A stretch of DNA of 64,000 nt, from the sequence record KY963424; one strand, given 5' to 3'. Below the pieces are notes generated by a model. The model searched no databases and was not told where the DNA came from. It saw only the letters and a program-made list of their open reading frames with translations. This DNA is from Shigella phage SSP1. Below, one piece after another: positions 31,820 to 55,462 of the stretch; positions within the stretch are counted from its first letter, which is position 1; every line of letters starts with the position of its first letter. The translations under genes and the position numbers were made by a program.

Positions 31820-31913
31820 GTAAAATTTTCCGGATGGTGCTATCATTGGTCTTGAGTACGGGTAAAACCGAGCCAAAATGACTCGGTAATCAGAGTTCAG
31901 CCAATAAAAATCA

Positions 31914-32303: not shown

Positions 32304-32312
32304 TGTGCCCCC

Positions 32313-32741: not shown

Positions 32742-32743
32742 AT

Positions 32744-34052: not shown

Positions 34053-34246
34053 TATACGATTCCTCGCTTAAATCCTTCGATAATATTTCGGAGTAAAATT
34101 GCTTCCTCCGGGCGTACCTTTTCTTGCTTAATAAGCATATCCAATCCAGCAATACAACTAGCTACACCAGCATTATAACCAGAGTTCCATTGCTCAATAA
34201 GCATGTTTTCTAGATTACTTTTTAGACTCTGATTCAAGAAGTCCAT
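34052..34246 (-). CDS. Hypothetical protein (64 aa)
   Basis: Small ORF. Confidence 0.35.
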   Translation of the reverse strand: MDFLNQSLKSNLENMLIEQWNSGYNAGVASCIAGLDMLIKQEKVRPEEAILLRNIIEGFKRGIV

Positions 34247-34418
34247 AAAGTTTCTCCTCTAGTTCCATAACACGATTTTCATAAGAAGCACGCAACTTTT
34301 CAATTGCCAGCGCACGCACTGTAACCTCATTAGAATTAATAGCTAACTGGGCCAGGTCTTCTGTTTCCATACGTCCGTTGTAAATTAAGCGATATTTAAG
34401 ATGTTTTACGTTTTTCAT
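34215..34418 (-). CDS. Hypothetical protein (67 aa)
   Basis: Small ORF. Confidence 0.35.
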   Translation of the reverse strand: MKNVKHLKYRLIYNGRMETEDLAQLAINSNEVTVRALAIEKLRASYENRVMELEEKLYGLLESESKK

Positions 34419-34427
34419 TCTTGTTCC

Positions 34428-34709
34428 TTAGTTCTGTACTGTAAACTCATTCTTATCACAGTGAGCATAATAATACCCATACATACGATAAATTTTCACA
34501 GCCTTAGTAGACCCCTTCGATTCTTCATAATCAATCCAGAGCCACTTGTCTTTACCTACATAATGTACCCGAAACTTCTTAACTTTCTTATCATTCCATG
34601 TTGCAACAACACGACGATAATCAAATCCACCCAACCAATCTAGAGCCTTACGTTCTTCACTAGGCTCTCCAAGATGGGAGACATCTACTTTAGGAAGCAA
34701 CTCGCTCAT
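34428..34709 (-). CDS. Hypothetical protein (93 aa)
   Basis: ORF downstream of early promoter at 34738..34766. Confidence 0.45.
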   Translation of the reverse strand: MSELLPKVDVSHLGEPSEERKALDWLGGFDYRRVVATWNDKKVKKFRVHYVGKDKWLWIDYEESKGSTKAVKIYRMYGYYYAHCDKNEFTVQN

Positions 34710-34737
34710 AGCTTTCTCCTCTCAAATTTATAAATCA

Positions 34738-34766
34738 ATTATACATAAATTTTTGGCTGAAAGCAA
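34738..34766 (-). promoter_or_regulatory. T5-type early promoter (TTGCTT-17-TATAAT + ATAAATTTGAGAGGAG box)
   Basis: Reverse complement TTTATTTGCTTTCAGCCAAAAATTTATGTATAATTGATTTATAAATTTGAGAGGAG. Confidence 0.65.
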
Positions 34767-34808
34767 ATAAAATAAAAGCCAGGTCGACTAGCAACCCGGC
34801 TGATTAGC

Positions 34809-36683
34809 TTATTTAGCTCGAATATCCTGATGTTTCACTCTGCCCATAACCTCGTGCTGTTTGCCGGGGTTAAATGGACGAGCACCCGGATTTCCAAGAT
34901 ACCCACAAACTCGACGAGTTACCTCAAGAGTTTCGGGGTCATGATTACCACAGATAGGGCACTTAAATCCATCTTCGGATGCTATTGTTTCACCTAAGAA
35001 TCCACATTTACCGCAAGAATCCACTGGAGTATTAATACCGAAGTAATGAACTTTACTAGCAGCATAATTAATAACCCATTCCAGTGCATCTGGGAATCGT
35101 TTCATATCTGGTAGTTCTACATAGGAAATGCACCCACCAGAAGCAATCGGAGTGAAATTAGATTCATAATCAAATTTCACGTTAGGAGCAACTTTACGTT
35201 CTACATCAAGGTGGTGAGAGTTAGTGTAGTATCCTTTGGACAGAATATCTTCATGCTCCGGGAAATATTCGCGGTCTAGACGACAAAAACGGTCACATAG
35301 GGATTCTGATGGTGTAGCATACAGGCTATAACCTAATTTAGTTTCTTCCTTCTTCTGATCGACTCTATCCCGCATGTACTGCAATACACGCTGAACAAAC
35401 TTGATGCAGGTCTCGGACATTGTGTCTACATCTTTGCCAAACATAAACTGTAGCATTTCATGGCAACCAATATACCCTAGAGATACAGAAGCACGGTTAT
35501 AGAAATGATCGAATACATACTCATCCGGCTCCAAGCGTAACCCAAAGGCTCCTGACATATAGAGGATGGGTGCAGCTTTAGCTTGAATGTATTTTAAGCG
35601 ATCAACTCTCCACTCCAATGCTTTTAACGCTGTATCCACACGTAGCTCAAGCAAATCAAAGAATAGATCAATATTTCCTTCAGCTTCGATAGCAATTCTA
35701 GGCAAGTTTACAGAAACAACACCTAAGTTATTACGACCGGCAGTTTCACCATCTTCTGTAGCAGCTAGGAATGAACGGCAGCCCATAGAAACTTTATAGT
35801 CACCAGTAACTTCCACAACCTTATCATAGCTGATATAATCTGGATACATACGTTCAGCAGTACATTTCATAGCTAACTTCTTGATGTCATAATTAACATC
35901 TCCTGGTTTCATATTTACGCCATCACGAAGTACAAATACCAGTTTCGGGAAGATAGCTGTACGTTTATTGATACCTAAACCATCCATGCGTACTTTCAGT
36001 ATTGCTTTCTGTACTAGACGTGCTTCCCAAGAAGTTCCTAGACCAAAACCAAAGGTAATAAATGGACTCTGCCCATTAGAGTTGAACATGGTATTGATTT
36101 CATATTCTAAACCCTGACAAGCGTCATAGACTTCTTTTTCAGTCATCTCCGTAGCCATTACGGATGCTTTGGCTTCATCCTTAGTCCAACGTTTTGCAAA
36201 CGCATGATTTTTGTCATAGGATTTACGAACATAAGGGGCTAATACTTCATCAAGGCGATCTACAGAAGTACCACCATACTGATGGGAGCTAACCTGAGTG
36301 ATAATCTGAGCAGTAATAGCCGCCGCAGTAGTGATAGAGTTTGGAGTGCTAATTTCAGCATTACCAACCTTCATGCCATTCTTCAACATATCTTCCAGGG
36401 CCACCAGACAACAGTTAGTCATGCCTAATGCAGCATAATCAGCATCATGGAAATGAATATCCCCAATCATATGAGCATTTCGAATCTGAATTGGCATTTC
36501 TTCTAGAATTAGATACTTACTCAACTCACCTGCAAGCATATCCCTTTGTGTAGGGAAACGTTCTGAGGGTTTATTGGCATTATTAAATAGCAGTTCTTCA
36601 TCTGCTGACCCTTCGATAATCTCTTTGCAGTTTCTAATTAACGCCTGCATTTCTTTATACTTTAGTTCTTCATTACGATTCAT
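34809..36683 (-). CDS. nrdD: Anaerobic ribonucleoside-triphosphate reductase (class III)
   Basis: 624 aa; C-terminal glycyl-radical motif RVCGYLG and Cys4 zinc site CGKCGF...CPICG. Confidence 0.9.
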   Translation of the reverse strand: MNRNEELKYKEMQALIRNCKEIIEGSADEELLFNNANKPSERFPTQRDMLAGELSKYLILEEMPIQIRNAHMIGDIHFHDADYAALGMTNCCLVALEDMLKNGMKVGNAEISTPNSITTAAAITAQIITQVSSHQYGGTSVDRLDEVLAPYVRKSYDKNHAFAKRWTKDEAKASVMATEMTEKEVYDACQGLEYEINTMFNSNGQSPFITFGFGLGTSWEARLVQKAILKVRMDGLGINKRTAIFPKLVFVLRDGVNMKPGDVNYDIKKLAMKCTAERMYPDYISYDKVVEVTGDYKVSMGCRSFLAATEDGETAGRNNLGVVSVNLPRIAIEAEGNIDLFFDLLELRVDTALKALEWRVDRLKYIQAKAAPILYMSGAFGLRLEPDEYVFDHFYNRASVSLGYIGCHEMLQFMFGKDVDTMSETCIKFVQRVLQYMRDRVDQKKEETKLGYSLYATPSESLCDRFCRLDREYFPEHEDILSKGYYTNSHHLDVERKVAPNVKFDYESNFTPIASGGCISYVELPDMKRFPDALEWVINYAASKVHYFGINTPVDSCGKCGFLGETIASEDGFKCPICGNHDPETLEVTRRVCGYLGNPGARPFNPGKQHEVMGRVKHQDIRAK

Positions 36684-36712
36684 TACACCCTCCTTCTCTA
36701 ACTAAGACTACT

Positions 36713-36741
36713 ATTATAACTCATTCGAGGGCGGATGTCAA
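36713..36741 (-). promoter_or_regulatory. Consensus sigma70-like promoter for nrdD (TTGACA-17-TATAAT)
   Basis: Reverse complement TTGACATCCGCCCTCGAATGAGTTATAAT. Confidence 0.6.
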
Positions 36742-36876
36742 TATAATTTTTCTCTTAGATATCGTATTTTGATCTGTGCTAAGAAACTTGATCAGAGTGT
36801 CAAAATTTTATTGACACCACCGTAACTTTTGTATAAGATATACACATAATTTAAGAAATTTGACAAGGAAATAAAA

Positions 36877-37368
36877 ATGAACACTGAAATAACACAAGAC
36901 CTACTAAGAACTTACTTTGACTATAAAGATGGAGAATTGTTTTACAAACCAACTTATAAAACCCCTGCAGGAAGAATATCCAAAAAAGCAGGTAAATCCG
37001 CCAGACTAACTCCGAGTAACGGGTACTATCGTATAAATGTACCAAGAATAGGTGTACAGAAAGAACATAGGATGATTTTCCTATATCATGAAGGATACCT
37101 ACCAGAAGTAGTAGATCATATTGATAGGGATAAGGAAAATAATAGGATAGAGAACCTTAGGGCATCTAATCTTCAGGACAACGCTATTAATCGCTCCATA
37201 AGTAAGAGTAACACCTCTGGCATTGTGGGTGTCCATTATGATGAATCGTATGGTAAGTGGGTTGTAACGTATAGGGGTAAGTACTTTGGAAGATTTGATA
37301 CCAAAGAAGAAGCTGCCGAAGTTAATGCTAATGTTCGTGCCCTTGATCAAACCCGTATAAATAGTTGA
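36877..37368 (+). CDS. HNH homing endonuclease with AP2 DNA-binding domain
   Basis: VDHIDRDKENNRIENLRASNLQDNAIN (HNH) followed by GVHYDESYGKWVVTYRGKYFGRFDTKEEAA (AP2-like). Confidence 0.75.
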   Translation: MNTEITQDLLRTYFDYKDGELFYKPTYKTPAGRISKKAGKSARLTPSNGYYRINVPRIGVQKEHRMIFLYHEGYLPEVVDHIDRDKENNRIENLRASNLQDNAINRSISKSNTSGIVGVHYDESYGKWVVTYRGKYFGRFDTKEEAAEVNANVRALDQTRINS

Positions 37369-37451
37369 TTATCTAGTATCACACATCTCCCGTTAAAAGC
37401 AAGCAAATTTTTTATTTAAATGCAATATCATAGGCTTATTTAAAATTGTAG

Positions 37452-37480
37452 TTGCTTTTTACTGTATATATTGGTATAAT
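37452..37480 (+). promoter_or_regulatory. T5-type early promoter (TTGCTT-17-TATAAT)
   Basis: AAAATTGTAGTTGCTTTTTACTGTATATATTGGTATAAT. Confidence 0.6.
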
Positions 37481-37553
37481 ATATTTGTAAGTTGATAAAC
37501 AAGATCTTTTTGTTGATCCTCTGTTAGCGAAGTACACTATAGGAGTGTTATTT

Positions 37554-38306
37554 ATGGGAAAAGCACGTCAAAAAAGAGAGAACCGCAATGGTTCAAGAAA
37601 GCGTGGCAACAAATATGAGAACAACGTAATTCAGGCTGATTTTTCTAATGATTACGCTAATCCAGTTGCTAAATCCCTAGTAGGTAAAAACCGCGAGCAA
37701 AAATCATATATCAATATGATCAAGAACAACACAGTGACTGTGGGTATCGGTGAGCCAGGTACTGGTAAAACCTTTATTCCGTCCGTTCTTGCAGCTCAGG
37801 AACTCGTAGACATTCACTCAGATATTGAGCAAGTGATCCTCGTACGTCCTAATGAACCTCTAGGTAAGTCTCTTGGTATGCTTCCTGGTGATCTAGCGGA
37901 AAAGCTAGAGCCTTGGTTAGAGCCAATAGCTGATGGTATGAAATGGGCCATCGGCGATCATGCGTATAAAGGATATGTCGAACGTCAGAAAATTAAATTT
38001 TTGGCTGTCGAACATGCTCGTGGCAGAACTTTCAACAACTCCTATGTAATTGTCGATGAAGCTCAGAATATTTCCGTTGAGGCAATGATTTGTCTCCTAA
38101 CTCGTGTAGGACAAGACTGCCGTTTAATTATCTGCGGAGATATAGCTCAGAAAGACATTAAAGGTGACTCAGGTCTAGCACTCCTTATGGAAGTCTATGA
38201 AAAATACGAAAATGCCCCATTCTCAATGATCGAATTGATTGATAACGTTCGTTCTGTTGAGTCTAAAGCATTCTATGATATTTTTAAAGACATGGGGAAG
38301 GTGTAA
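37554..38306 (+). CDS. phoH: PhoH-like ATPase
   Basis: Walker A GEPGTGKT, Walker B VIVDEAQN; ATG with AGGAG RBS (ORF track starts at GTG 37545). Confidence 0.8.
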   Translation: MGKARQKRENRNGSRKRGNKYENNVIQADFSNDYANPVAKSLVGKNREQKSYINMIKNNTVTVGIGEPGTGKTFIPSVLAAQELVDIHSDIEQVILVRPNEPLGKSLGMLPGDLAEKLEPWLEPIADGMKWAIGDHAYKGYVERQKIKFLAVEHARGRTFNNSYVIVDEAQNISVEAMICLLTRVGQDCRLIICGDIAQKDIKGDSGLALLMEVYEKYENAPFSMIELIDNVRSVESKAFYDIFKDMGKV

Positions 38307-38307
38307 T

Positions 38308-38550
38308 ATGGGAAACGTCGTTCATCTGAGCCGTAAAACTAAAATACATCGTACTTCACTGAGTGCTGCTAATATGATTACACGTAAGGAAGGGGAAGAA
38401 AGTCCTAAGACAACCCTAGCGTGGAAAATTGTAACCTCAAATCCAAATAAACCATTCAATTATAACGAGTTGAGCACCTCCATAGATATTCTATTAAAAG
38501 AGGCAGCTAGAGCTAAAGTAATTGAACAAGCTAAAAAGCTAGACTGGTAA
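38308..38550 (+). CDS. Hypothetical protein (80 aa)
   Basis: ATG with GGGGAAGG RBS immediately after phoH stop. Confidence 0.45.
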   Translation: MGNVVHLSRKTKIHRTSLSAANMITRKEGEESPKTTLAWKIVTSNPNKPFNYNELSTSIDILLKEAARAKVIEQAKKLDW

Positions 38551-38671
38551 TATACAGGGCCTGGGTATGAAAATACTCGGGCCTTTTCTATCAGAAAATT
38601 TTATTTGCCTAATGACCGATAATAAAGTAGAATATTCCTTAAATCCTGATAACTATAAAAAGGAAAGCCAA

Positions 38672-41002
38672 ATGAGTCATCGCATTGAAAAAGTAATTAA
38701 ACGTGACGGTACTGTAGAAGACTTTGCTCCTGAAAAAATCAATGGTTGGGCAGAGTATGGTTGCAAAACAGTTGATGTAAGTTGGTCAGCCATTACTATG
38801 GCTGCTCAAAAAACTCTGCCTAAAGGGGTTGTAGATTCCGACACTCTGATGGATGCATTAATTAAAGCTGCTGAAAGTCTTATTAAAGATAATCCAGCAT
38901 ATGATGTGCCAGCAAAGGAATTACGTCTTGCGCAAATGCGTAAACGCCTTTATGATTCTTTCGAACCACCTTCTCTACGCTTCTTCCATGATCACATGGT
39001 TAGCGTAGGTGCATGGGAAGACATGAGTGCATGGATTACCGATGAGCAATTTGAAGCTCTGAATCAGGTTATCGACCATGATCGTGACCGTCTTTTTACT
39101 AGTGGTGGGCTGAAGCAGTTCTTTGATAAGTATTCCCGTCGTAACATAGCCACTGGTGAAATCTATGAAACTCCGCAGTTTGCCTACATGGGTATGGCAA
39201 TGGCGATGTTATCTCAACCTAACTGGACAATTCTAGATGCAATCGACCTCTACAACGCAATGTCACTCCACAAAATCAACGTTCCTACGCCGCCACTGGT
39301 TGGTCTGCGCTCTAGTGACCGTGGATTTGCTAGTTGCTGCCTCGTGGATTCCACTGACACGTTGGATTCAATCGACACCGCCGAGCACATCGTCTTCAAA
39401 ATGGTCGCAGCCAGAGCGGGAATCGGGTATCATCTTGAAAGCCGATCAATTGCTGATCCGGTGCGAAATGGGGCATTCCCGCATTCCGGAAAACTGCCAT
39501 ATTATCGACACATTGACCGCTCAGTAAAGGCCAATACTCAGCAAACTCGTGGTGGTTCTGCTACAGTGTCTTATCCGTACTTCGACCCTGAAATCATTCA
39601 ATTGATGCAGGTTAAGCAGCAACGTGCTACAGATGAGAATAAAATCGATAAGATGGATTATTCTCTGAGCTTTAACAATCTTTTGTTAAAACGTTATCTT
39701 AAAAACGAAGATATTACGCTAATGTCATACTTCTATGCTCCAGAAGTTCATGAAGCGTTTTATAGTGATGACGAGGCTAAATTTGAAGAAATCTACGTGG
39801 CAGCGGAGAAACGTGTGGCATCTCTTACAAAGATCGACCACGAAGGAAAAACAGTTCCAGCAGCTCCTAAAGTCTCTGCAAAAGAAATCCTAGATACTTG
39901 GCTACGTATCCGAATGGAAACAGGACGTATGTATGCTCATCACATCGGGGAATCTAATCGTCACGGTAACTTCCTTGATCCGATCCGTATGACAAACCTT
40001 TGTGTTGAAATTACTCAGCCTACACGCCCATTCCATCATATCACGGAACTGTATAAAACAAAAGAACAACTTGATCAAATGAAGCCGGAGGATATTGGTG
40101 AAGTATCTCTGTGTAACTTAGGTGGTGTTGTACTTGGACGCATGGAATCTCTGGCCGAGTGGGAAAAAACTTGCTACATCCTCCTGAAATTCGTTGATAC
40201 AATTATTGAAATTCAGGATTATCCGTTCCCAACTATGGAATATACGGCTAAGAAACGTCGTAATGTTGGTATTGGCCTGATGAACGCAGCAGGTGCAATG
40301 GCAGCAGAAGGTCTGGCTTATGAAGGTATTGAAGCCCGTAACTGGATTCACCGTGAGGCTGAAAAACTGTCTTACTTCCTGCATAAAGCCTCTGTACGCC
40401 TAGCTAAAGAACAGGGCGCATGTGAGTGGTTTGATCGTACTAAACCATCTAAAGGAATTCTGGTAATCGACACGTACAAGAAAACTGTTGATGAACTGGT
40501 ATCCGTAGGTCTAGAAATGGATTGGGAGTCTCTACGTGCAGATATTCTGAAATATGGTATGCGTAACTCTGTTCTGACTGCTCAGATGCCGGGAGAAAGT
40601 TCTTCTGTTCTGTTAGGTGTTACTAACTCTATCGAACCACCTCGTAAGATTGTATCTATCAAGGGTAGTGCAGTTAATAAAGTAATTGCAATTGCTCCAG
40701 GTGCAACCGATTGGGAAACGTTAATGAGCTATAAACTGGCTTATGATGTAGATCGTATCGAGTGGATCAAGTGGGTAGCAACTATGCAGAAATTCTTCAG
40801 TCAGTCTATCAGTACGAATATGTACTATGACTACACCAAGTTTGAGAATGAAATCATTCCTGGCCCAGTAGTAGTTCGTGATTTCATGACTGCTGTTAAG
40901 TATGGGTGGAAAACTTGGTATTATGCTAACTTCAATACCGCAAATGGTGGAGGTGCTGGAGAAGAAGCAGCCGGTTGTGCATCCGGCGGTTGTACTATTT
41001 AA
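38672..41002 (+). CDS. nrdA: Ribonucleoside-diphosphate reductase, alpha subunit (class Ia)
   Basis: N-terminal ATP-cone (IKRDGTVEDF), catalytic core, C-terminal CxxxxC tail; start at MSHRIEK with AAAAGGAAAG RBS. Confidence 0.9.
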   Translation: MSHRIEKVIKRDGTVEDFAPEKINGWAEYGCKTVDVSWSAITMAAQKTLPKGVVDSDTLMDALIKAAESLIKDNPAYDVPAKELRLAQMRKRLYDSFEPPSLRFFHDHMVSVGAWEDMSAWITDEQFEALNQVIDHDRDRLFTSGGLKQFFDKYSRRNIATGEIYETPQFAYMGMAMAMLSQPNWTILDAIDLYNAMSLHKINVPTPPLVGLRSSDRGFASCCLVDSTDTLDSIDTAEHIVFKMVAARAGIGYHLESRSIADPVRNGAFPHSGKLPYYRHIDRSVKANTQQTRGGSATVSYPYFDPEIIQLMQVKQQRATDENKIDKMDYSLSFNNLLLKRYLKNEDITLMSYFYAPEVHEAFYSDDEAKFEEIYVAAEKRVASLTKIDHEGKTVPAAPKVSAKEILDTWLRIRMETGRMYAHHIGESNRHGNFLDPIRMTNLCVEITQPTRPFHHITELYKTKEQLDQMKPEDIGEVSLCNLGGVVLGRMESLAEWEKTCYILLKFVDTIIEIQDYPFPTMEYTAKKRRNVGIGLMNAAGAMAAEGLAYEGIEARNWIHREAEKLSYFLHKASVRLAKEQGACEWFDRTKPSKGILVIDTYKKTVDELVSVGLEMDWESLRADILKYGMRNSVLTAQMPGESSSVLLGVTNSIEPPRKIVSIKGSAVNKVIAIAPGATDWETLMSYKLAYDVDRIEWIKWVATMQKFFSQSISTNMYYDYTKFENEIIPGPVVVRDFMTAVKYGWKTWYYANFNTANGGGAGEEAAGCASGGCTI

Positions 41003-41010
41003 TAAAAACA

Positions 41011-41038
41011 AGGAGATCTTCGGGTCTCCTTTTTCTTT
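41011..41038 (+). terminator. Intrinsic terminator after nrdA
   Basis: GGAGATC-TTCG-GGTCTCC hairpin followed by TTTTTCTTT. Confidence 0.65.
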
Positions 41039-41048
41039 GAAATTTTAC

Positions 41049-41078
41049 TTGCTAATCGCTACCAGATTTGCTATAATA
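41049..41078 (+). promoter_or_regulatory. T5-type early promoter (TTGCTA-18-TATAAT)
   Basis: AAATTTTACTTGCTAATCGCTACCAGATTTGCTATAAT. Confidence 0.6.
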
Positions 41079-41108
41079 TTCCTGAAATAGTGAGAAAGAG
41101 GAAAATCA

Positions 41109-42254
41109 ATGACTACTTTACTAAACCTGAACTGGGATCATACTAACGCTGACCTTTTCCTGGGAGATTCTCTCGGTATCGCAGATTATGTACGTGTAGC
41201 ACATCCAGAACTAGAACGTCTGGCACTTCTGCAACGCTCTCAATTTTGGACTGAAACTGAAATCAGTCTGGAAGCAGATAAGAAACAATGGCCTAATCTC
41301 CCGCGTGAAATTCAGGAAATTACACTCCTGAACTTAGCATGGCAGACTCAAACAGATTCCTTTATCAGTCGTGCTCCTGAAGCAGCTATTATGCCGCTTG
41401 TAAGTCGTCCAGAATTGGAAGGTATGCTCAAGCAGTGGAGCTACTTCGAAGATCTACATAGTCGTGCTTATAGCAATATTATTCGTAATGTGCTAACTGA
41501 TCCAGCAGAATTTATTGATTCTGTAACCAAAAACCAAGAAGCATTCGCACGCATCGCTGATTCTGTTGAACTATTCGATGAACTGTACCAGTTAGGTCAG
41601 TATTTCATCGCAGTACGCGATCATCGTGGCGACAATACATATCCAGAAACTGAGTTCCCTGAAGTTAAACGTGAAACTCAGGCTAAACTATTAGACGCTT
41701 ACTTTGCGATCTATGGTCTGGAAGCAATGCAGTTTTACGCATCCTTTGCATGTACCTTTGCATTAGCAGAGAACGATATTCTGCAAGGTATTGCTAAAAA
41801 TCTGCAATTAATCGCTAAAGATGAAGCTCTGCACACTCAGATGTCCAAAGCAATCATCCAGATTATGTTCCAGCAGTTTGACAAAGACCTGGTGGATGAA
41901 GCAGTGGCTAAAGCACCAGCACAGCTCCTGAAAACTCTGAAAACTGAAATTGAATGGGGTCACTTCATTTTCAAAGGTCGTAGTCTGATTGGCTTGAATG
42001 CAGAACTTCTAGAAGAATATCTGTACTTTGTGGGGCGTAATGCATTTATGCACATCGGTGTAGAATGGCCAAGTAACCTGCCGGTAATCACCAAGAACCC
42101 TATTCCATGGATCATGAACTGGTTGGATACCACTTCTTTACAGCCTGCTCCACAAGAAATCCAGATTGGTGCAGCATATCGTGTAGGTCAGGTAACTGAG
42201 ACCTCTACTGATACTCTGAAAGATCTGGGCAATGAATTTGGAGATTTCTTATGA
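41109..42254 (+). CDS. nrdB: Ribonucleoside-diphosphate reductase, beta subunit
   Basis: 381 aa; di-iron/tyrosyl radical ferritin-like fold; follows nrdA. Confidence 0.9.
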   Translation: MTTLLNLNWDHTNADLFLGDSLGIADYVRVAHPELERLALLQRSQFWTETEISLEADKKQWPNLPREIQEITLLNLAWQTQTDSFISRAPEAAIMPLVSRPELEGMLKQWSYFEDLHSRAYSNIIRNVLTDPAEFIDSVTKNQEAFARIADSVELFDELYQLGQYFIAVRDHRGDNTYPETEFPEVKRETQAKLLDAYFAIYGLEAMQFYASFACTFALAENDILQGIAKNLQLIAKDEALHTQMSKAIIQIMFQQFDKDLVDEAVAKAPAQLLKTLKTEIEWGHFIFKGRSLIGLNAELLEEYLYFVGRNAFMHIGVEWPSNLPVITKNPIPWIMNWLDTTSLQPAPQEIQIGAAYRVGQVTETSTDTLKDLGNEFGDFL

Positions 42255-49452: not shown

Positions 49453-49770
49453 ATGACTTTTCATATTTTGATTGATGATGTGCGTAATCTTCACGGAATG
49501 GACATTATCATTCGAACCCCAGAAGCCGCTGTAGAGTTTCTGAATAAAACTGATACCACAGGCCATTTCGTTTATATGGATAATGACTTGGCTGTAGATG
49601 GTATGGAAGGTTATCAAATTCTTCGTTTACTCTTAGAATTTGGGCAGAGACCAAAGAAAGTGGTACTAGTAACCTCGAACCCAGTAGCTAAGCAAAATAT
49701 GCGTAATGATTTGCTTGACTTAGGGTATAAAGAAAATCCCAATCGTGTTGAATATGATTGGCAGGAGTAA
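49453..49770 (+). CDS. Small protein with receiver (CheY-like) domain-like pattern
   Basis: HILIDDV...FVYMDNDLAVDGMEGYQILRLL...VVLVTSNP resembles an orphan REC fold (acidic pocket, phospho-Asp position, T/S, hydrophobic beta strands); tentative. Confidence 0.4.
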   Translation: MTFHILIDDVRNLHGMDIIIRTPEAAVEFLNKTDTTGHFVYMDNDLAVDGMEGYQILRLLLEFGQRPKKVVLVTSNPVAKQNMRNDLLDLGYKENPNRVEYDWQE

Positions 49771-49775
49771 AAAGA

Positions 49776-50225
49776 ATGAAGGCAGCTTTGCTTTTAGTAG
49801 CTGCCCTTACCTTCAGCTTTAGTAGTCAGGCATCGCACGATGCAAAAGAAATAGATTGCATTGCTAAAAATATCTATTTCGAGAGTCGTGGTGAGGGCAT
49901 AAAGGGAATGACGGCGATTGCACATGTTACTAAAAACCGTGTAAACTCCGGTAAATTCCCAGATTCCTACTGTAAAGTAGTATATCAGTCTAACCAGTTC
50001 TCTTGGGTATCTAAGAGACCAAAAGTTGATAAAACTGATGAGGCTTGGCAAACCGCTAAGAATTTAGCTAGAGTGATATACTACGTTGATTTACCACAAG
50101 ATCCTACATATGGAGCACTATACTTCCATAGTGGTAAAGATAAACCTTACTGGACAAAGAAGTTTAAGAAAACAACTAAGATTAAGGGGCATACGTTTTA
50201 TAAACCTGTTGTCACTAAAACTTAA
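49776..50225 (+). CDS. Secreted cell-wall hydrolase, SleB-like (Hydrolase_2)
   Basis: N-terminal signal peptide MKAALLLVAALTFSFSSQA; IAKNIYFESRGEG...AIAHVTKNR core similar to SleB/CwlJ-type hydrolases. Confidence 0.55.
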   Translation: MKAALLLVAALTFSFSSQASHDAKEIDCIAKNIYFESRGEGIKGMTAIAHVTKNRVNSGKFPDSYCKVVYQSNQFSWVSKRPKVDKTDEAWQTAKNLARVIYYVDLPQDPTYGALYFHSGKDKPYWTKKFKKTTKIKGHTFYKPVVTKT

Positions 50226-50293: not shown

Positions 50294-50464
50294 ATGAAAT
50301 CAGTTGTAATTATTGGTGTTAACACTCGCGGTATTCGTACTACGAAAACTGTTAAAACTTCTAACGTTGCTGAAATCACTACGAACCCTAAAAAGTTTGA
50401 TTTCGCCAAAGTCTCAGCAGTTATGACAGAACAATCTTTTAACCAAGCGTTAGGAATGAAATAA
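50294..50464 (+). CDS. Hypothetical small protein (56 aa)
   Basis: GAGGAAGCGAAATATG RBS; below 60-aa cut-off of ORF track; stop overlaps next start (TAATG). Confidence 0.35.
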   Translation: MKSVVIIGVNTRGIRTTKTVKTSNVAEITTNPKKFDFAKVSAVMTEQSFNQALGMK

Positions 50465-50907
50465 TGGAAGAGAATATTTTAGATGTTTTGCGTAGAGCTT
50501 TGCAGGATTCTAAGTTTAATGGTTCTGATAAAGAAGTCGCTAAAAGCTATCAGACCATAATTGGGGATCTTCAGCGTATTGATAAAGATTTCATCACTTC
50601 TGAACAATTTGTGTCTTATCTCAAAGCTCAACTAAAAAGCATTAACCAGATGAAAGCTAAACTTCATGGTCAAGATCTTGATAGTTATAGCTTGCAGTCT
50701 GCTCAGTATGAATACATTCTAAATAAGTGGTTGCAGGAGTATCTGCCCCCTCAGTTATCTGATACTGAGATTCGTAAATACTTTGCAGAATTAGTTAAGC
50801 TAAACCCTGGAATTACAAAAGGTATGCTGATGAAAGCGATTAAGGAAGAATTTCCTGGGCGTTATGATGGTGGTACTGCTGCTCAGATTGCTGGCGAATT
50901 TAATTAA
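50464..50907 (+). CDS. GatB/YqeY-domain protein
   Basis: 147 aa; LSDTEIRKYFAEL...GMLMKAIK pattern typical of YqeY/GatB C-terminal domain. Confidence 0.55.
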   Translation: MEENILDVLRRALQDSKFNGSDKEVAKSYQTIIGDLQRIDKDFITSEQFVSYLKAQLKSINQMKAKLHGQDLDSYSLQSAQYEYILNKWLQEYLPPQLSDTEIRKYFAELVKLNPGITKGMLMKAIKEEFPGRYDGGTAAQIAGEFN

Positions 50908-50915
50908 AAATTTAT

Positions 50916-50944
50916 TTGCTAAATGCCTTTAAATTCTGTATAAT
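50916..50944 (+). promoter_or_regulatory. T5-type early promoter (TTGCTA-17-TATAAT) preceding ORF-less region
   Basis: AAAAATTTATTTGCTAAATGCCTTTAAATTCTGTATAAT + CATAAATTAGGGAAC. Confidence 0.65.
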
Positions 50945-51182
50945 ATATTCATAAATTAGGGAACAGCGAGCCGATTACGCTGAACTTGTCTTAATGTAAG
51001 ATGCGTCGAGCACTAAGATTCGTTGAATAGAGTCGGTGGGTTAGTTGTAAAACTAGTACACATGGGGCGGCAATCCCGGTTAGTGGCTAGAACGTGTAAA
51101 ATGAGGCGTCTGAAACCTCTCCCCTAAACTCTTCTCTAATTTATAAATAGTGGGGTGTGGAAATCACTTATGTAGTAACACT

Positions 51183-51254
51183 GCCGTCCTAGTATAATTG
51201 GTATTATCAAGCCGTAACTGGTGGAAGATGTAGGTTCGAATCCTACGGTCGGTA
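51183..51254 (+). ncRNA. tRNA-like element (canonical T-arm, 6/7 acceptor pairs, no recognisable anticodon arm)
   Basis: GTAGG-TTCGAAT-CCTAC T-arm; 5' GCCGTCC pairs with 3' GGTCGGT except one U-U; D- and anticodon regions do not fold canonically. Confidence 0.35.
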
Positions 51255-51754
51255 AGAACTGGATAACTGATGCTTTTAACGTAAAAGCTTCCGAGGTTAG
51301 TTGCGCACTGCCTAAACCACGCGGTAGTTGGTTCCAGACTAACCAACCAGTCTGCTGAATAGTTTTATTACGATTTAACTATGTCCAGGCTAAAGAAGAA
51401 CTTTAGAAGGTATTCTAGGATAGTGAAGTTCTTCCTCCATATCGGAGTAGTTTTTCAAGCTATCCACAAAGTGGGAAATGCTGACATGAGAGATGTCACT
51501 AATGGTGCACAATAGCACAGGTAATTCGCGATAATTCCTGTTGAGTAGCAGCAAAAGGCGGGAAGTCATGACCCCAAGCCTAACCGAGTCCTCAATATAC
51601 CGCAGGACATAACCACTAAGTCACCCTGACTTAAACTGGAAAATAATAGACGTTACCGTATTTTGTCTTGAAATACTTAATGAGTGAGACTTATGACTCT
51701 CCCGGTATCGTCTGTATTTTTAAGAGTTTTTACGAGAGTTCTTAAAAATACTTA

Positions 51755-51827
51755 AACGGGGTGTAGTCTAAGGGAGAGGCAGGAGTCTTCTAAATTCCTT
51801 TATGCAGGTTCGAATCCTGTATGAGCA
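51755..51827 (+). ncRNA. tRNA-like 3' element (T-arm GCAGG-TTCGAAT-CCTGT) at end of ORF-less region
   Basis: Canonical T-loop; no complementary 5' acceptor strand found by eye. Confidence 0.3.
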
Positions 51828-52734
51828 AAAATTGATGCGTAATATCAAACGTTGGGGTATTGGTGCTGCAGTTGGTTTGGTAGGTTTAGTTCTGGCCCTT
51901 AACTCCTATACTGTTGTTCAAGACGGTACTGTTAAAACCCAGACTTTCCTGGGTAAAGTTGACCCTAGCCCAGTATTACCCGGCTTTCATATTGTAAATC
52001 CTTTTGCTTCTTTCGATACTTTTAGTACTAAAGATATTGCTCTAAAATTAGATAAACTTCAGGTTCCTAGTCAGGATAAGTTTAAATCCACTGTTGACCT
52101 GACTGTTATGTTGCAGTTTGATGGTTCTAAGGCACCGATTAACCGTATTAATGCAGGTACTCAGGATCAATCGTTAGACAAATATGTAACTGAAAAATTA
52201 CTGTCTACTATTCGTGAGTTTGGTAAATCTGTACCTAAAGCACAAGATTTGTTTGATGCTAAAATTCAGGCTCAATTGCAAACTGCAATTCAACAGGAAG
52301 TTGAAGAGTATGCACGCCCATATGGTTACACAGTTAAGCAGGTGTTCCTTCAGGATATTACTTTGCCACCGGTAATCATGGAACAGGTACAGAATACCAA
52401 AGTTCGTGAAGAGCAGGTTAATGCTGCTAAAGCTGAATTAGCTCGTGTTGAACAGGAAGCACAGCAAAAAGTTAAACAAGCAGAAGCAGATCGTGAAGCC
52501 CGCAACAACCAAGCTATTGCCAATGAACGTGACGCAGATGCTAAACTATACGCAGCTAAGAAAGAAGCTGAAGCTAACGCCGCATTACAACGTACCATTA
52601 CTCCTGAGATGATTCGCTGGAAGCAACTGGAAGTCGAAATGATTCGTGCTCAGAAATATCAAGGTGGTGTACCCCAGACTGTGGTAGGTACTGGCTACGA
52701 TGGTCAAATGATCATGGATATGCGTAATAAATAA
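51802..52734 (+). CDS. SPFH/band-7 domain membrane protein (prohibitin/HflC-like)
   Basis: N-terminal TM helix WGIGAAVGLVGLVLAL, SPFH-like core, C-terminal Ala/Glu/Gln-rich coiled coil; likely start at ATG 51835 (MRNIKRW); no clear SD. Confidence 0.65.
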   Translation: MQVRILYEQKLMRNIKRWGIGAAVGLVGLVLALNSYTVVQDGTVKTQTFLGKVDPSPVLPGFHIVNPFASFDTFSTKDIALKLDKLQVPSQDKFKSTVDLTVMLQFDGSKAPINRINAGTQDQSLDKYVTEKLLSTIREFGKSVPKAQDLFDAKIQAQLQTAIQQEVEEYARPYGYTVKQVFLQDITLPPVIMEQVQNTKVREEQVNAAKAELARVEQEAQQKVKQAEADREARNNQAIANERDADAKLYAAKKEAEANAALQRTITPEMIRWKQLEVEMIRAQKYQGGVPQTVVGTGYDGQMIMDMRNK

Positions 52735-52759
52735 TACCCGCATGTAACATCTGAAGTAA

Positions 52760-52796
52760 GCCCTGCGTTCCCTGGAGAGCGCAGGGTTTTTCTGTA
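52760..52796 (+). terminator. Intrinsic terminator after SPFH gene
   Basis: CCCTGCG...CGCAGGG hairpin followed by TTTTTCTG. Confidence 0.65.
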
Positions 52797-52812
52797 TTTA
52801 AGATAAAAGAAA

Positions 52813-52850
52813 AGCCCCTAAGTCTTTCGACTAGGGGCTTTATTGTTTGG
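52813..52850. terminator. Second hairpin, potentially bidirectional terminator
   Basis: AGCCCCTAG-TCTTTCGA-CTAGGGGCT flanked by A-run upstream and TTATTGTTT downstream. Confidence 0.55.
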
Positions 52851-53058
52851 TTCTTTAGAACCATATACTCTTATTACAGCAACCACCCATACGGGAGGCC
52901 AACCTTGACTGAAAATCTACTCTAGGGGGCAGGATAAGAGTAGGCTTAAAGGCAAACGGATTGAACGCCGGTATTTGCGTAAACATTGCTGGAGAGCAAC
53001 AACGTGCTACAGGCATTGGGCAGCACGAAACAGATTTTCTGCAACACATAATTCCTCC

Positions 53059-53475
53059 TTAGGAGTTATTACCACCATTTTGAGCTTTTGCAACTTGGCT
53101 TTGGCAGAAGCTATTAAACTTACCCATAAGTGATACAAGCTGTTTCCCATCCTCTGTCTTTGCGAAGTCTTCGAAAAGGGCTAGTACTGCCTGTCCTTCC
53201 GCAGAAACCTGCGGTTGTTGGGTTTGTTGCTGAACTTGCTGCTGCGGCACCTGTTGCTGCATTTGTTGAGGCATTTGCGACTGCCCGCTCATTTGCTGCA
53301 TCATTTGCATAGGACTCACACTTCCAGGGTTTTGCTGGAGTTGTTGCTGCATCTGTTGCGCTTCTGCTAAACGCTGTTGCAATTGTTGTAAGTAGGGGTT
53401 ATCCAGACCCGGAACGGGCTGCTGGGAGCCCATATTTTGATTAAGTCCGTTATTTACAAAACCATATTTACTCAT
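53059..53475 (-). CDS. Gln-rich low-complexity protein (138 aa)
   Basis: About 30% Gln (QQLQQRLAEAQQMQQQLQQ...QQMQQQVPQQQVQQQTQQPQ); RBS GGAGGAG upstream; second gene of minus-strand island. Confidence 0.6.
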   Translation of the reverse strand: MSKYGFVNNGLNQNMGSQQPVPGLDNPYLQQLQQRLAEAQQMQQQLQQNPGSVSPMQMMQQMSGQSQMPQQMQQQVPQQQVQQQTQQPQVSAEGQAVLALFEDFAKTEDGKQLVSLMGKFNSFCQSQVAKAQNGGNNS

Positions 53476-53496
53476 AATGGGCTCCTCCCCTTAATA

Positions 53497-54483
53497 TTAA
53501 GCCGGCAGTTTAGCCTGCAGACCAGCCAGAGTCTGAGTGATAGCACCAAGACTTAAAGCGATTTGATTAATTACCTGACCGTTAGCACCGCTACCCGCAG
53601 CGATTGCTTCACGTAGGCGACATGCGTCTAACTCATCCTGGATACGCGCAGTAGTTACACCAGCTATCGCAGTCTGAAGTTCACAGCAACATTCAGCGAT
53701 CTGACGTTCCAAAGAGTTCTGGTTAGCACACATCTGAGCCTGAACAGCGGCAAACTGGTTATTAGTTTGTAAAGTCTGCTGGAAAGCGATCTGTGCAGAA
53801 TCAAACTTATCTTGTGCACGAGCTATCTGATTAGCTGCGAAAGATTGATCAATCTGGCGAGAAAGATCGAACTGACCCTGAATAACGTTGCGAGTTTCCT
53901 GGCAGATTTGATTAGACAGATTAGCACCCGTACCATAGATCGTAGTTAGTACAGACTGAGTATCACGGCTCTGGTTTTGGGATGTCTGGCTAAAACCATT
54001 GTTAACTGCGCTTAAAACAGCTCCAGTACCCTGGTTAGCTTCTGTACGAGTAGTGTTAATAGCTGCTAGAATACTAGCGGTATCTTGGTTCTGAAGTACT
54101 GCATCAACTGCGGTACCTTCACCAACTACACCACGTCCACCGAATCCACCGAAACCACCGAATCCGCCTGTTAATAGAGCACCGATTAGGATAGCTCCGA
54201 ATAGCCCCATACCTTCACCACCGAAAGCACCTGCGTTTGCTGGGTAACCACCCAGTAGGCCAGGGAAGCCACTAGTGAATACGTTTACTGGTTCTTGCAT
54301 TTTATGTTTTCCATATTTATGACAATGTTCATCATCGTCATCTTCTTCATCGTCGTGTTCGCGATGTTTCTCTTCGTAGGCTCTGACCTTCTCCCACTTT
54401 TTCTTATCTGATTCCTCGTGACGGTGCAGTTCTGCTGCAACGCTAGCGACGGTCTCAGGACTCTTAGCTACTTCTTCTGTCAT
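53497..54483 (-). CDS. Membrane protein with acidic/His-rich N-terminus, glycine-zipper TM (GGFGGFGGFGG) and Gln/Asn/Thr-rich C-terminal domain
   Basis: Start MTEEVAK with AGGAGGTG RBS (ORF track extends to 54543); MGLFGAILIGALLTGGFGGFGGFGG hydrophobic Gly-zipper; long Q/N/A/T-rich tail. Confidence 0.6.
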   Translation of the reverse strand: MTEEVAKSPETVASVAAELHRHEESDKKKWEKVRAYEEKHREHDDEEDDDDEHCHKYGKHKMQEPVNVFTSGFPGLLGGYPANAGAFGGEGMGLFGAILIGALLTGGFGGFGGFGGRGVVGEGTAVDAVLQNQDTASILAAINTTRTEANQGTGAVLSAVNNGFSQTSQNQSRDTQSVLTTIYGTGANLSNQICQETRNVIQGQFDLSRQIDQSFAANQIARAQDKFDSAQIAFQQTLQTNNQFAAVQAQMCANQNSLERQIAECCCELQTAIAGVTTARIQDELDACRLREAIAAGSGANGQVINQIALSLGAITQTLAGLQAKLPA

Positions 54484-54545
54484 TTTTTGACACCTCCTAG
54501 TATATAGAAAATGTGTGTCTCTTTGATCACTCATCCATAACATAT

Positions 54546-55384: not shown

Positions 55385-55462
55385 GGTTCTCAAGCTCATA
55401 TGGTATGAGCACCCGGCTCATAACCGGAAGGTACGTAGGTTCGAATCCTCGGGGAGCCACCA
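55385..55462 (+). tRNA. tRNA with CAT anticodon (Met or Ile2)
   Basis: Acceptor GGTTCTC/GGGAGCC (with G-U pairs), D-stem GCTC/GAGC, anticodon loop CTCATAA, T-loop TTCGAAT with imperfect stem, CCA encoded. Confidence 0.6.

What the first reader, a model, noticed from the sequence alone, without database searches (positions are those of the whole stretch)
51802..52734. Phage-encoded SPFH/band-7 membrane protein
The product has an N-terminal membrane anchor, an SPFH core and a long Ala/Glu/Gln-rich coiled coil, followed by two terminators. SPFH proteins organise membrane microdomains and regulate membrane proteases; in a phage it might modulate host membrane proteases, lysis timing or defence systems. 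No Shine-Dalgarno precedes either candidate start, and the 5' end overlaps a tRNA-like hairpin, so translation may be coupled to RNA processing.
Basis: partly seen in the sequence, partly recalled or inferred. Interest (0 to 1): 0.4.

Follow-up and report, generated by a model that had tools for sequence, protein, structure and literature searches.

The report
Truncated T5-type phage SPFH gene
This is the well-known SPFH (band-7) membrane-protein gene of T5-like phages, and its missing ribosome-binding site and overlap with a tRNA-like hairpin come from a 79-base deletion, seen only in this genome, that cut off the gene's true start and the end of the neighbouring arginine tRNA.

Summary
The ORF 51802-52734 is real and is an SPFH/band-7 protein (Pfam Band_7, E 1e-19). 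An AlphaFold model matches full-length chains of the erlin, prohibitin, HflK/C, stomatin and QmcA cages. It is the ortholog of phage T5 gene T5.080 and is 98% identical to a 249-member cluster. The window is a Tequintavirus.

Compared with T5, KPP2018, Spc35 and Kenya-K18, the window lacks 79 bp at 51819/51820. The lost segment holds:
- the 3' acceptor strand and CCA of tRNA-Arg(UCU);
- the spacer carrying the native Shine-Dalgarno (AAGGA, 5-6 nt from the ATG);
- the true ATG and the first 11 codons.

ATG 51802 is a chance in-frame ATG inside the tRNA remnant. It is buried in a 9-bp hairpin that the deletion lengthened.

The segment is present in 419 phage records. The junction occurs in none of them, and in no viral, metagenome or genome contig collection.

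So this is a private 5'-truncated allele (or an assembly artefact), not translation coupled to RNA processing. The tRNA is dead. Any SPFH protein would come weakly from ATG 51835.

The common "lipoprotein" label is wrong, because the protein has no cysteine. The family's function is untested. Its gene neighbours (rI antiholin, secreted cell-wall hydrolase) hint at an envelope or lysis role.

The parts
50916..50944 (+). Sigma-70-type promoter (TTGCTA-17-TATAAT). It is the equivalent of T5 promoter P16-17, which drives RNAX, tRNA-Arg and the SPFH gene.
   Evidence: Promoter scan, 10 of 12 matches. It aligns to the T5 promoter region annotated at 41554-41628.
50958..51756 (+). Non-coding stretch equivalent to T5 'RNAX' (stable RNA of unknown function). 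It contains a tRNA-like element at 51183-51254.
   Evidence: Alignment to T5 RNAX 40848-41566. Rfam tRNA hit of 35.5 bits at 51183-51254 with no proper anticodon arm; ARAGORN makes no call there.
51757..51820 (+). Remnant of tRNA-Arg(UCU). The 5' acceptor strand and the D, anticodon and T arms are present. The 3' acceptor strand, discriminator base and CCA are deleted.
   Evidence: Alignment A1. Rfam scores 28.4 bits over model positions 8-63 here, against 49.3 bits over positions 1-71 in KPP2018. ARAGORN calls tRNA-Arg(tct) in three relatives and nothing in the window.
51819..51821 (.). Junction of the 79-bp deletion (G51819 | T51820 | A51821). The T is 1 nt of microhomology shared by both deletion ends.
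   Evidence: Alignment A1. BLAST pieces end and start at window 51820, matching locus positions 1921 and 2000. The deleted 79 nt were listed from KPP2018.
51802..51834 (+). Spurious 5' extension of the ORF. A chance in-frame ATG in the variable-loop/T-stem part of the tRNA remnant is followed by 11 codons. The first six (MQVRIL) are not part of the native protein.
   Evidence: Alignments A1 and A2. ATG 51802 is paired in a 9-bp stem, 51800-51808 with 51816-51824. The nearest GGAG is 16 nt upstream.
51835..52734 (+). SPFH/band-7 coding sequence retained from the first remaining Met (299 aa), ortholog of T5.080. It keeps the basic tail, TM helix, SPFH domain, CC1 and CC2 helices and the conserved C-terminal strands.
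   Evidence: Pfam Band_7. PHROG 200, E 1e-84. 98% identity to P0001. AlphaFold mean pLDDT 80. Foldseek hits to SPFH cage subunits.
52758..52789 (+). GC-rich hairpin followed by a T-run (terminator-like). Its 3' arm carries GCGC at 52779-52782, the position where T5 is annotated with a major single-strand interruption.
   Evidence: dG -22.4 kcal/mol, z -4.8. T5 misc_feature at 39746/39747 and alignment A4.
52811..52841 (.). Bidirectional intrinsic terminator shared with the convergent minus-strand genes (52855-54543).
   Evidence: Folds at -19.8 kcal/mol (+) and -20.2 kcal/mol (-), z -4.5 and -5.4. It aligns to the T5 terminator at 39678-39720.

Best explanation
The window is from a T5-like phage (Tequintavirus). 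The ORF is the ortholog of T5 gene T5.080, a single-pass inner-membrane SPFH protein.

The normal arrangement in T5 and its relatives is one transcription unit: promoter P16-17, RNAX, tRNA-Arg(UCU), a spacer of about 35 nt with an AAGGA Shine-Dalgarno, the ATG of the SPFH gene, a hairpin, then a bidirectional terminator.

In this genome a 79-bp deletion with 1 nt of microhomology removed three things:
- the 3' acceptor strand and CCA of the tRNA;
- the spacer with the Shine-Dalgarno;
- the ATG and the first 11 codons.

Shown here:
- The tRNA can no longer form an acceptor stem, so it is a dead gene.
- The SPFH reading frame is open upstream only by accident, back to an ATG inside the tRNA remnant.
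- That ATG sits in a hairpin which the deletion lengthened from 5 to 9 bp.

Inferred:
- Translation of the SPFH protein is abolished or strongly reduced.
- Any product starts at ATG 51835, which is A/U-rich and has no Shine-Dalgarno. It would be a 299-aa protein that keeps every conserved part of the family.
- The RNAX-tRNA-mRNA precursor is probably no longer cut at the tRNA.
- The intact protein most likely inserts N-in/C-out, following the positive-inside rule. It would assemble, like other full-length SPFH proteins, into a homo-oligomeric dome over a patch of inner membrane on the periplasmic side.
- Its client is unknown. An envelope or lysis-timing role is the best lead.
For: Identity and synteny:
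- The region is 96-99% identical to Tequintavirus genomes.
- The T5 annotation shows T5.080 preceded by tRNA-Arg, RNAX and promoter P16-17, and followed by a nick site and a bidirectional terminator. The window aligns to all of these.

The deletion:
- Alignment A1 shows a clean 79-nt gap with 100% identical flanks. BLAST break points agree.
- The 79 nt are present in 419 phage records, with at least 80% coverage in 371.
- Every record that covers 100% of a 91-nt query across the junction matches it in two pieces spanning 170 nt.
- The exact junction was not found in viral, metagenome or genome contig collections.
- The segment is not elsewhere in the window.

The tRNA:
- ARAGORN and Rfam call an intact tRNA-Arg(tct) in relatives, at 49.3 bits over model positions 1-71.
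- The window has only a partial, sub-threshold match.

The start codon:
- The native start has AAGGA at a 5-6 nt spacing. ATG 51802 has GGAG at 16 nt, and ATG 51835 has only GAG.
- The Met at 51835 is not conserved: it is ATT in Spc35 and GTT in T5.
- ATG 51802 lies inside a 9-bp stem.

The protein:
- Band_7 match, AlphaFold model and Foldseek matches to full-length SPFH cage subunits at E 1e-10 to 1e-13.
- Synonymous versus non-synonymous codon differences from relatives are 26/1, 4/1 and 26/3, so the coding part is undamaged.
- N-terminal tails vary in length across the family, so the short tail is tolerable.
Against: - The sequence alone cannot show that the deletion exists in the phage rather than only in its assembly.
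- No expression data are available. A/U-rich leaders without a Shine-Dalgarno can be translated in E. coli, so ATG 51835 might still give useful amounts of protein. The KPP2018 annotators chose that start.
- The coding sequence shows no decay. That fits a very recent deletion, but it also fits a gene that is still in use.
- The topology, oligomeric cage and function of the protein are inferred from homology and were not tested.
Confidence: 0.8

Rival explanations
1. The 79-bp gap is an assembly or sequencing artefact, or a deletion picked up during laboratory passage. On this view the natural phage has the intact tRNA-Arg, Shine-Dalgarno and 315-aa gene like all its relatives.
For: The junction is unique among about 440 related phage records and absent from three large contig collections. 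Neither the 310-aa nor the 299-aa product is on record anywhere. The flanks are 100% identical to 14 records.
Against: A clean 79-bp loss with 1-nt microhomology in non-repetitive sequence is not a typical assembler error. The tRNA-Arg/SPFH junction and the RNAX region do vary by indels in nature: a 66-aa ORF is inserted there in phage SuperGirl, and the window differs from T5 by 162-nt and 87-nt indels.
Confidence: 0.2
2. The truncated gene is still functional. Translation starts at ATG 51835 on an unstructured A/U-rich leader and yields enough of a 299-aa SPFH protein. Only the tRNA is truly lost.
For: The truncated product keeps the basic tail (RNIKR), the TM helix and all conserved domains. 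Family members naturally have tails as short as about 10 residues. The coding sequence is free of damage. The region around 51825-51850 is weakly structured in the predicted fold.
Against: Pairing to the anti-SD is only -1.9 kcal/mol, in the weakest 14% of the window's long ORFs. The Met is not conserved in T5 or Spc35, so it is not a normal alternative start. The 5' end is now fused to a structured tRNA remnant and RNAX.
Confidence: 0.35
3. One reading: the tRNA-like hairpin overlapping the start is an evolved device that couples translation of the SPFH gene to RNA processing.
For: In the intact relatives the mRNA really is co-transcribed with a tRNA and a stable RNA (T5 annotation). So tRNA 3' processing probably does create the mRNA 5' end in this family.
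Against: In relatives the tRNA and the gene are separate and the gene has a normal Shine-Dalgarno. The overlap exists only in this genome. It destroys the acceptor stem that processing enzymes need.
Confidence: 0.04

Closest known systems
Phage T5 gene T5.080 (YP_006908.1, annotated 'lipoprotein', single transmembrane domain) and its orthologs in Tequintavirus and Epseptimavirus, often annotated 'SPFH domain / band 7 family protein'
   Same: Same position between tRNA-Arg/RNAX and the bidirectional terminator. 98% amino-acid identity to the main cluster P0001. Same domain layout.
   Different: The window copy lacks the native ATG, the first 11 codons and the Shine-Dalgarno, and it is fused to a truncated tRNA-Arg. 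The 'lipoprotein' name does not fit any member examined here: the window protein has no Cys and therefore no lipobox.
E. coli HflK/HflC (FtsH-regulating SPFH cage; PDB 7vhq, 7wi3, 9cz2)
   Same: N-terminal TM helix, SPFH domain, long CC1/CC2 helices and a C-terminal strand region. Foldseek E about 1e-9 to 1e-11 over about 300 columns. The predicted N-in/C-out topology is that of HflK/C (inference from the positive-inside rule).
   Different: Only 16-18% identity. No NCBIfam HflK or HflC match. It is a single gene rather than a tandem paralog pair. Binding to FtsH is untested.
E. coli QmcA-YbbJ (SPFH-NfeD complex, PDB 8z5g)
   Same: Best PDB sequence match (E 1.1e-6, residues 35-261). Likely homo-oligomeric, like QmcA.
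   Different: No NfeD-type partner among the neighbouring ORFs scanned. About 20% identity. QmcA is reported to face the cytoplasm (from my own knowledge), whereas the phage protein is predicted to face the periplasm.
Eukaryotic prohibitin, erlin and stomatin cages
   Same: Top structural matches: erlin1/2 at E 8e-14 and PHB1/2 at E 2e-12. The overall subunit architecture is the same.
   Different: Distant sequences (15-19% identity), different membranes and different clients. This is resemblance of fold only.
SPFH genes of T4-like phages (RB43 ORF139c, Cronobacter GAP161, Enterobacter EC-F2, Aeromonas 60AhydR15PP, Morganella Mm5)
   Same: Same phage-specific clade, 56-82% identical over the full length.
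   Different: Different genomic setting: next to the rI-type antiholin and DUF5856 rather than next to a tRNA.

Membership tests
SPFH / Band 7 superfamily (Pfam PF01145) | Profile match above the curated threshold | tested here: met
   71.6 bits against a cut-off of 23.6, E 1.1e-19, residues 47-220.
SPFH / Band 7 superfamily (Pfam PF01145) | Subunit architecture of the cage-forming members: N-terminal membrane anchor, alpha/beta SPFH domain, long coiled-coil helices, C-terminal strand segment | tested here: met
   AlphaFold mean pLDDT 80, with helix 3-33, a strand/helix core at 35-187, helices 190-265 and 268-285, and C-terminal strands. Foldseek full-length matches to erlin, PHB, HflK/C, stomatin and QmcA.
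SPFH / Band 7 superfamily (Pfam PF01145) | Assembly into a ring or dome oligomer on a membrane | not testable with these tools
   Needs cryo-EM or native mass measurement of an intact homolog.
T5.080 orthologous group (Demerecviridae) | High identity plus conserved position between tRNA-Arg/RNAX and the bidirectional terminator | tested here: met
T5.080 orthologous group (Demerecviridae) | Own ATG preceded by AAGGA, downstream of an intact tRNA-Arg | tested here: not met
   The 79-bp deletion removes it. This makes the window copy a truncated allele, not a different gene.
HflK / HflC (FtsH modulators) | Equivalog-level sequence match | tested here: not met
   NCBIfam gave 0 families at E <= 0.01.
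HflK / HflC (FtsH modulators) | Two paralogous SPFH genes in tandem | tested here: not met
   Only one Band_7 ORF in the locus. The neighbours have no Band_7 hit.
HflK / HflC (FtsH modulators) | Physical binding and regulation of FtsH | not testable with these tools
   Needs a pull-down or a CII/FtsH-substrate stability assay.
SPFH-NfeD operons (QmcA-YbbJ type) | Adjacent NfeD-family gene | tested here: not met
   Pfam scans of the flanking ORFs gave YqeY, DUF7616, Hydrolase_2, cREC_REC or nothing, and no NfeD. ORFs under 50 aa were not scanned.
Bacterial lipoproteins (the label carried by PHROG 200 and many records) | Lipobox with an invariant Cys after a signal peptide | tested here: not met
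   The 310-aa product contains no cysteine.
tRNA-Arg(UCU) gene | Complete cloverleaf including the 7-bp acceptor stem | tested here: not met
   In the window, Rfam scores 28.4 bits (gathering score 29) over model positions 8-63, and ARAGORN makes no call. Relatives score 49.3 bits over positions 1-71 and are called tRNA-Arg(tct).
Known anti-phage defence system components | Match to a PADLOC model | tested here: not met
   0 families.

The most novel reading that the evidence does not exclude
The phage-specific SPFH clade shared by T5-like and T4-like phages (56-98% identical) may be a periplasm-facing membrane cage that controls envelope events late in infection.

Possible roles are lysis timing, for example by corralling a holin/antiholin or a secreted cell-wall hydrolase, or sequestering a host envelope protease.

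The basis for this reading is the gene's repeated placement next to an rI-type antiholin plus DUF5856, or near a secreted SleB-like hydrolase.

The window's natural allele, which has lost both the start codon and the tRNA, would then be a ready-made loss-of-function variant for testing both this role and the value of a phage tRNA-Arg(UCU). The window's long ORFs use AGA/AGG for 32% of their Arg codons.
Probability: 0.12. Interest if true: 0.55.

Novelty: already known. Interest (0 to 1): 0.2.

Why it matters
- It corrects a plausible but wrong reading. The 'SD-less start overlapping a tRNA-like hairpin' is a deletion scar, not a regulatory device. The ORF start that an automatic caller would report (51802) is spurious.
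- It flags that the widespread 'lipoprotein' annotation of this family is unfounded.
- If the deletion is real, this phage has lost what is, by synteny with T5, its only tRNA-Arg (AGA/AGG decoder), although AGA/AGG make up a third of the Arg codons in the window's long ORFs. It has also lost normal expression of a strongly conserved membrane protein.
- That gives a natural comparison for two open questions: what phage SPFH proteins do, and how much individual phage tRNAs matter. Published work shows that other T5 tRNAs act as spare parts against tRNA-cutting defences (PMC11464382).

Tried and rejected
- **Source genome or another carrier of the junction.** I searched a 91-nt junction query in 50,697 phage records and exact junction patterns in viral, metagenome and genome contigs. 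I also looked up the 310-aa and 299-aa products by exact sequence. All were negative.
- **Deleted segment moved elsewhere in the window.** Not found.
- **HflK/HflC or other curated bacterial family.** No NCBIfam hit.
- **Defence-system component.** No PADLOC hit.
- **Lipoprotein.** Rejected, because the protein has no Cys.
- **NfeD partner or a second SPFH gene nearby.** None among the scanned neighbours.
- **Alternative acceptor-stem pairing for the tRNA remnant.** Inspecting the sequence, only 1 of 7 positions can pair with the bases now following the T arm.
- **Literature on the T5 SPFH gene.** Searches for 'SPFH' with T5 or Tequintavirus, and for 'T5.080', gave no functional study. Papers on other phages say the function is poorly understood (PMC7760394) or speculate about HflC-like control of lysogeny (PMC10269572).
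- **Classical T5 deletable region.** It spans 29191-38625 (PMC11464382) and does not include T5.080 or tRNA-Arg, so dispensability cannot be taken from that work.
- **One failed call.** One paper search failed on a term that was too short.

Full report
**What is at the coordinates**

The + strand carries an ORF at 51802..52734 (310 aa). Its product matches Pfam Band_7 (PF01145) at E 1.1e-19, with 71.6 bits against a cut-off of 23.6. It also matches PHROG 200 at E 1e-84.

The protein's features are:
- one hydrophobic segment, residues about 19-38;
- an Ala/Glu/Lys/Gln-rich stretch at 200-265;
- no cysteine at all.

An AlphaFold model built on an 18-sequence alignment has mean pLDDT 80. It shows helix 3-33, a mixed strand/helix core at 35-187, an unbroken helix at 190-265, a second helix at 268-285 and short C-terminal strands.

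Foldseek against the PDB returns full-length subunits of SPFH cages over 270-310 aligned columns:
- erlin1/2, E 8e-14;
- prohibitin 1/2, E 2e-12;
- HflK/C, E about 1e-11;
- stomatin;
- QmcA, E 1e-10;
- flotillin.

By sequence, the nearest solved protein is E. coli QmcA (E 1e-6). The domain assignment is therefore sound.

Two hairpins follow the stop codon:
- 52758-52789, followed by a T-run;
- 52811-52841, which is bulged and folds equally well on both strands.

**Where the window comes from**

The region is 96-99% identical to many Tequintavirus genomes (T5-like phages, Demerecviridae). In the T5 reference (NC_005859) the orthologous gene is T5.080, annotated 'lipoprotein; contains single transmembrane domain'.

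Read in the direction of transcription, the T5 annotation gives this order:
1. promoter P16-17;
2. 'RNAX', a 719-nt stable RNA of unknown function;
3. tRNA-Arg;
4. T5.080;
5. a 'major DNA single-chain interruption';
6. an 'efficient bidirectional rho-independent terminator'.

The window aligns to all of these. Its promoter-like site is at 50916-50944. Its RNAX equivalent runs from about 50958 to 51756 and includes a tRNA-like element at 51183-51254. The second hairpin is the T5 bidirectional terminator. The first hairpin carries GCGC at 52779-52782, exactly where T5 is annotated with the nick.

**The key result: a 79-bp deletion**

I aligned 51700-51960 with Kenya-K18, KPP2018 and Spc35 and with T5. 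The flanks are identical, but the window lacks 79 nt between G51819 and A51821. T51820 is shared by both ends of the deletion.

The missing segment, read from KPP2018, is TCACCTCGGCCAATTTTATTAACTGTAACTAAAACAAAGGAAATATATGTTTGCTACTAAAAACACTAAAGAACTGACT. It contains:
- the 3' acceptor strand, discriminator base and CCA of tRNA-Arg(UCU);
- the intergenic spacer with the Shine-Dalgarno AAGGA, 5-6 nt before the ATG;
- the ATG itself and the first 11 codons.

In the three relatives ARAGORN calls tRNA-Arg(tct), and in KPP2018 Rfam scores it 49.3 bits over model positions 1-71. In the window ARAGORN finds nothing there. Rfam gives 28.4 bits, just under the gathering score, and only for model positions 8-63. 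The seven bases that now follow the T arm (ATGAGCA) can pair with the 5' strand CGGGGTG at one position only.

**Why the ORF appeared to start in a tRNA-like hairpin**

The tRNA's variable-loop/T-stem region happens to contain an ATG (51802). After the deletion that ATG is in frame with the SPFH gene. An ORF finder therefore extends the gene to it, adding six non-native residues (MQVRIL).

ATG 51802 is a poor start:
- The nearest GGAG lies 16 nt upstream, inside the anticodon stem.
- The ATG is paired in a 9-bp stem, 51800-51808 with 51816-51824.
- Four of those nine pairs exist only because the deletion brought ATGA next to the T arm.

The next Met, ATG 51835, has only GAG at 9 nt. Its pairing to the anti-SD is -1.9 kcal/mol, which is weaker than or equal to that of 86% of the window's ORFs of at least 120 aa. 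It is not a conserved alternative start, because the codon is ATT in Spc35 and GTT in T5.

**How unusual the deletion is**

- The 79-nt segment is present in 419 phage records, at 80% coverage or more in 371.
- A 91-nt query across the junction matched 439 records. Every record that covers it fully does so in two pieces spanning 170 nt, which is 91 + 79.
- Exact junction patterns occur in no viral, metagenome or genome contig of the collections.
- Neither the 310-aa nor the 299-aa product is on record.
- The segment has not moved elsewhere in the window.

The deletion is therefore private to this genome, or it is an artefact of its assembly. I cannot tell these apart without reads, and I put about 0.2 on an artefact.

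The neighbourhood does vary by indels in nature. Phage SuperGirl has a 66-aa ORF inserted between the tRNA and the SPFH gene. The window differs from T5 by a 162-nt insertion (about 50965-51126) and by having one copy of an 87-nt repeat unit that T5 has twice (at 51631/51632).

**Consequences**

Shown:
- The tRNA-Arg gene cannot give a cloverleaf with an acceptor stem.
- The SPFH gene has lost its start codon and ribosome-binding site.
- The remaining 299 codons are intact. Their synonymous/non-synonymous differences from three relatives are 26/1, 4/1 and 26/3.

Inferred:
- The tRNA is non-functional.
- RNase P and 3' processing at this site are probably lost, so the mRNA stays fused to RNAX.
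- SPFH synthesis is abolished or much reduced.
- If ATG 51835 is used, the product keeps the basic tail (RNIKR), the TM helix and all conserved regions. Family members naturally have tails of very different lengths, so it would probably work.

By synteny with T5, whose annotated tRNA region lists a single tRNA-Arg, this was probably the phage's only tRNA-Arg. The window's 18 ARAGORN tRNAs include no Arg. AGA and AGG together make up 32% of Arg codons (14.5 per 1000 codons) in the window's long ORFs. From general knowledge, these codons are rare in E. coli. Losing this tRNA could therefore carry a cost.

**What the intact protein probably does**

The family is phage-specific and tightly conserved. 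Members in T5-like phages, in T4-like phages (RB43, GAP161, EC-F2, Aeromonas and Morganella phages) and in other large phages are 56-98% identical over the full length. The nearest cellular protein of known structure is about 20% identical.

The protein is not an HflK or HflC equivalog (no NCBIfam hit). It has no tandem paralog and no NfeD partner among the scanned neighbours. It matches no PADLOC defence model. With no cysteine, it cannot be a lipoprotein.

The native tail has six Lys/Arg against two Glu, and the residues after the TM helix are neutral. By the positive-inside rule this predicts N-in/C-out, which is the topology of HflK/C.

My best mechanistic guess is a homo-oligomeric, periplasm-facing SPFH dome that fences off a patch of inner membrane. 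This is inferred and not tested.

The gene neighbourhoods give one lead:
- In two T4-like lineages the gene directly follows an rI-type antiholin (PF24205) and DUF5856.
- In an Aeromonas phage that antiholin-DUF5856 pair lies 2.9 kb away.
- In a 124-kb phage contig the SPFH gene lies about 0.4 kb upstream of a Hydrolase_2 cell-wall hydrolase.
- In the window a Hydrolase_2 enzyme lies 1.6 kb upstream (49758-50225). By inspection its N-terminus looks like a signal peptide.

This hints at an envelope or lysis-timing role. However, T4-like genomes share synteny, so these are few independent observations.

**Comparison with the literature, and verdict**

Phage SPFH genes have been noted repeatedly without functional work (PMC7760394; PMC10269572). 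I found nothing on T5.080 itself.

T5 tRNAs are known to act as decoys or spares against tRNA-cleaving defences. The published deletions of the tRNA region (29191-38625) do not reach tRNA-Arg or T5.080 (PMC11464382).

The feature as reported is an already known, widely annotated gene. What is new is only that this copy is a 5'-truncated allele fused to a dead tRNA. That explains the anomalies and removes the case for a special translation mechanism. Interest is low (0.2). The family's unknown function remains a fair question, and the deletion, if real, offers a natural mutant for studying it.

Noticed in passing
window 52758-52789 (GCGC at 52779-52782): The first terminator-like hairpin after the SPFH gene carries the Pu-GCGC motif at the position where the T5 reference is annotated with a 'major DNA single-chain interruption' (T5 39746/39747). 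The hairpin is conserved in T5 through a G-C to G-T change and a C-G to T-G change.
   Followed up: partly
window 50958-51756, especially 51183-51254: A long non-coding stretch equivalent to T5 'RNAX' (stable RNA, function unknown). It contains a tRNA-like element (Rfam tRNA, 35.5 bits) with acceptor, D and T arms but no proper anticodon arm. That element is nearly identical in T5 and KPP2018, and ARAGORN does not call it.
   Followed up: partly
window about 50965-51126 and 51631/51632: Relative to T5, the RNAX region has a 162-nt insertion just after the promoter, and one copy of an 87-nt unit that T5 carries as a direct repeat. The non-coding region is prone to indels.
   Followed up: no
L005/L006 3250-4915, L009 3320-4924, L007 4001-8387: In T4-like phages the orthologous SPFH gene sits directly after an rI-type antiholin (PF24205) and a DUF5856 gene, or 2.9 kb from that pair in an Aeromonas phage. 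This is a possible functional link to lysis inhibition.
   Followed up: partly
L008 337-5837: In a 124-kb phage contig the SPFH gene is preceded by TelA, vWA-TerF-like and TerD genes (tellurite-resistance-type stress proteins). It is followed, one gene later, by a Hydrolase_2 cell-wall hydrolase.
   Followed up: no
window 49758-50225 (+): A SleB-type cell-wall hydrolase (Pfam Hydrolase_2, E 4e-25), the T5.083 ortholog, lies 1.6 kb upstream of the SPFH gene. By inspection its N-terminus looks like a cleavable signal peptide.
   Followed up: partly
window 55385-55459 (+): A tRNA with anticodon CAT (Rfam, 40.3 bits) lies right after tRNA-Ser and was missed by ARAGORN. By position it corresponds to T5 tRNA-Ile2(CAU).
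   Followed up: no
window 49453-49770 and 50294-50464 (+): Two small conserved genes sit upstream: a cREC_REC 'cyclic-phosphate processing receiver' domain protein (E 4e-15) and a DUF7616 protein (E 5e-33). A YqeY-like protein at 50464-50907 is labelled 'tRNA amidotransferase' in T5, but its Pfam score (25.4 bits) is below the cut-off of 27.
   Followed up: no
window 52855-54543 (-): A convergent three-gene unit ends at the same bidirectional terminator. It encodes a Cys-rich 64-aa ORF, a Gln-rich 138-aa protein and a 348-aa protein with a Gly-rich hydrophobic segment. The 138-aa and 348-aa proteins have no Pfam match; the 64-aa ORF was not scanned.
   Followed up: no
L011 739-939 (Escherichia phage SuperGirl): This Epseptimavirus has a 66-aa ORF inserted exactly between tRNA-Arg and the SPFH gene. 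The junction deleted in the window is therefore a recurrent site of rearrangement.
   Followed up: no
P0025, P0061, P0063: Some members of the phage SPFH clade are labelled in NCBI as bacterial or plasmid proteins (Klebsiella 'plasmid', Flagellimonas marina, Enterobacter asburiae). They sit on contigs of about 174-178 kb, which are most likely T4-like phage genomes filed as bacterial sequence.
   Followed up: no
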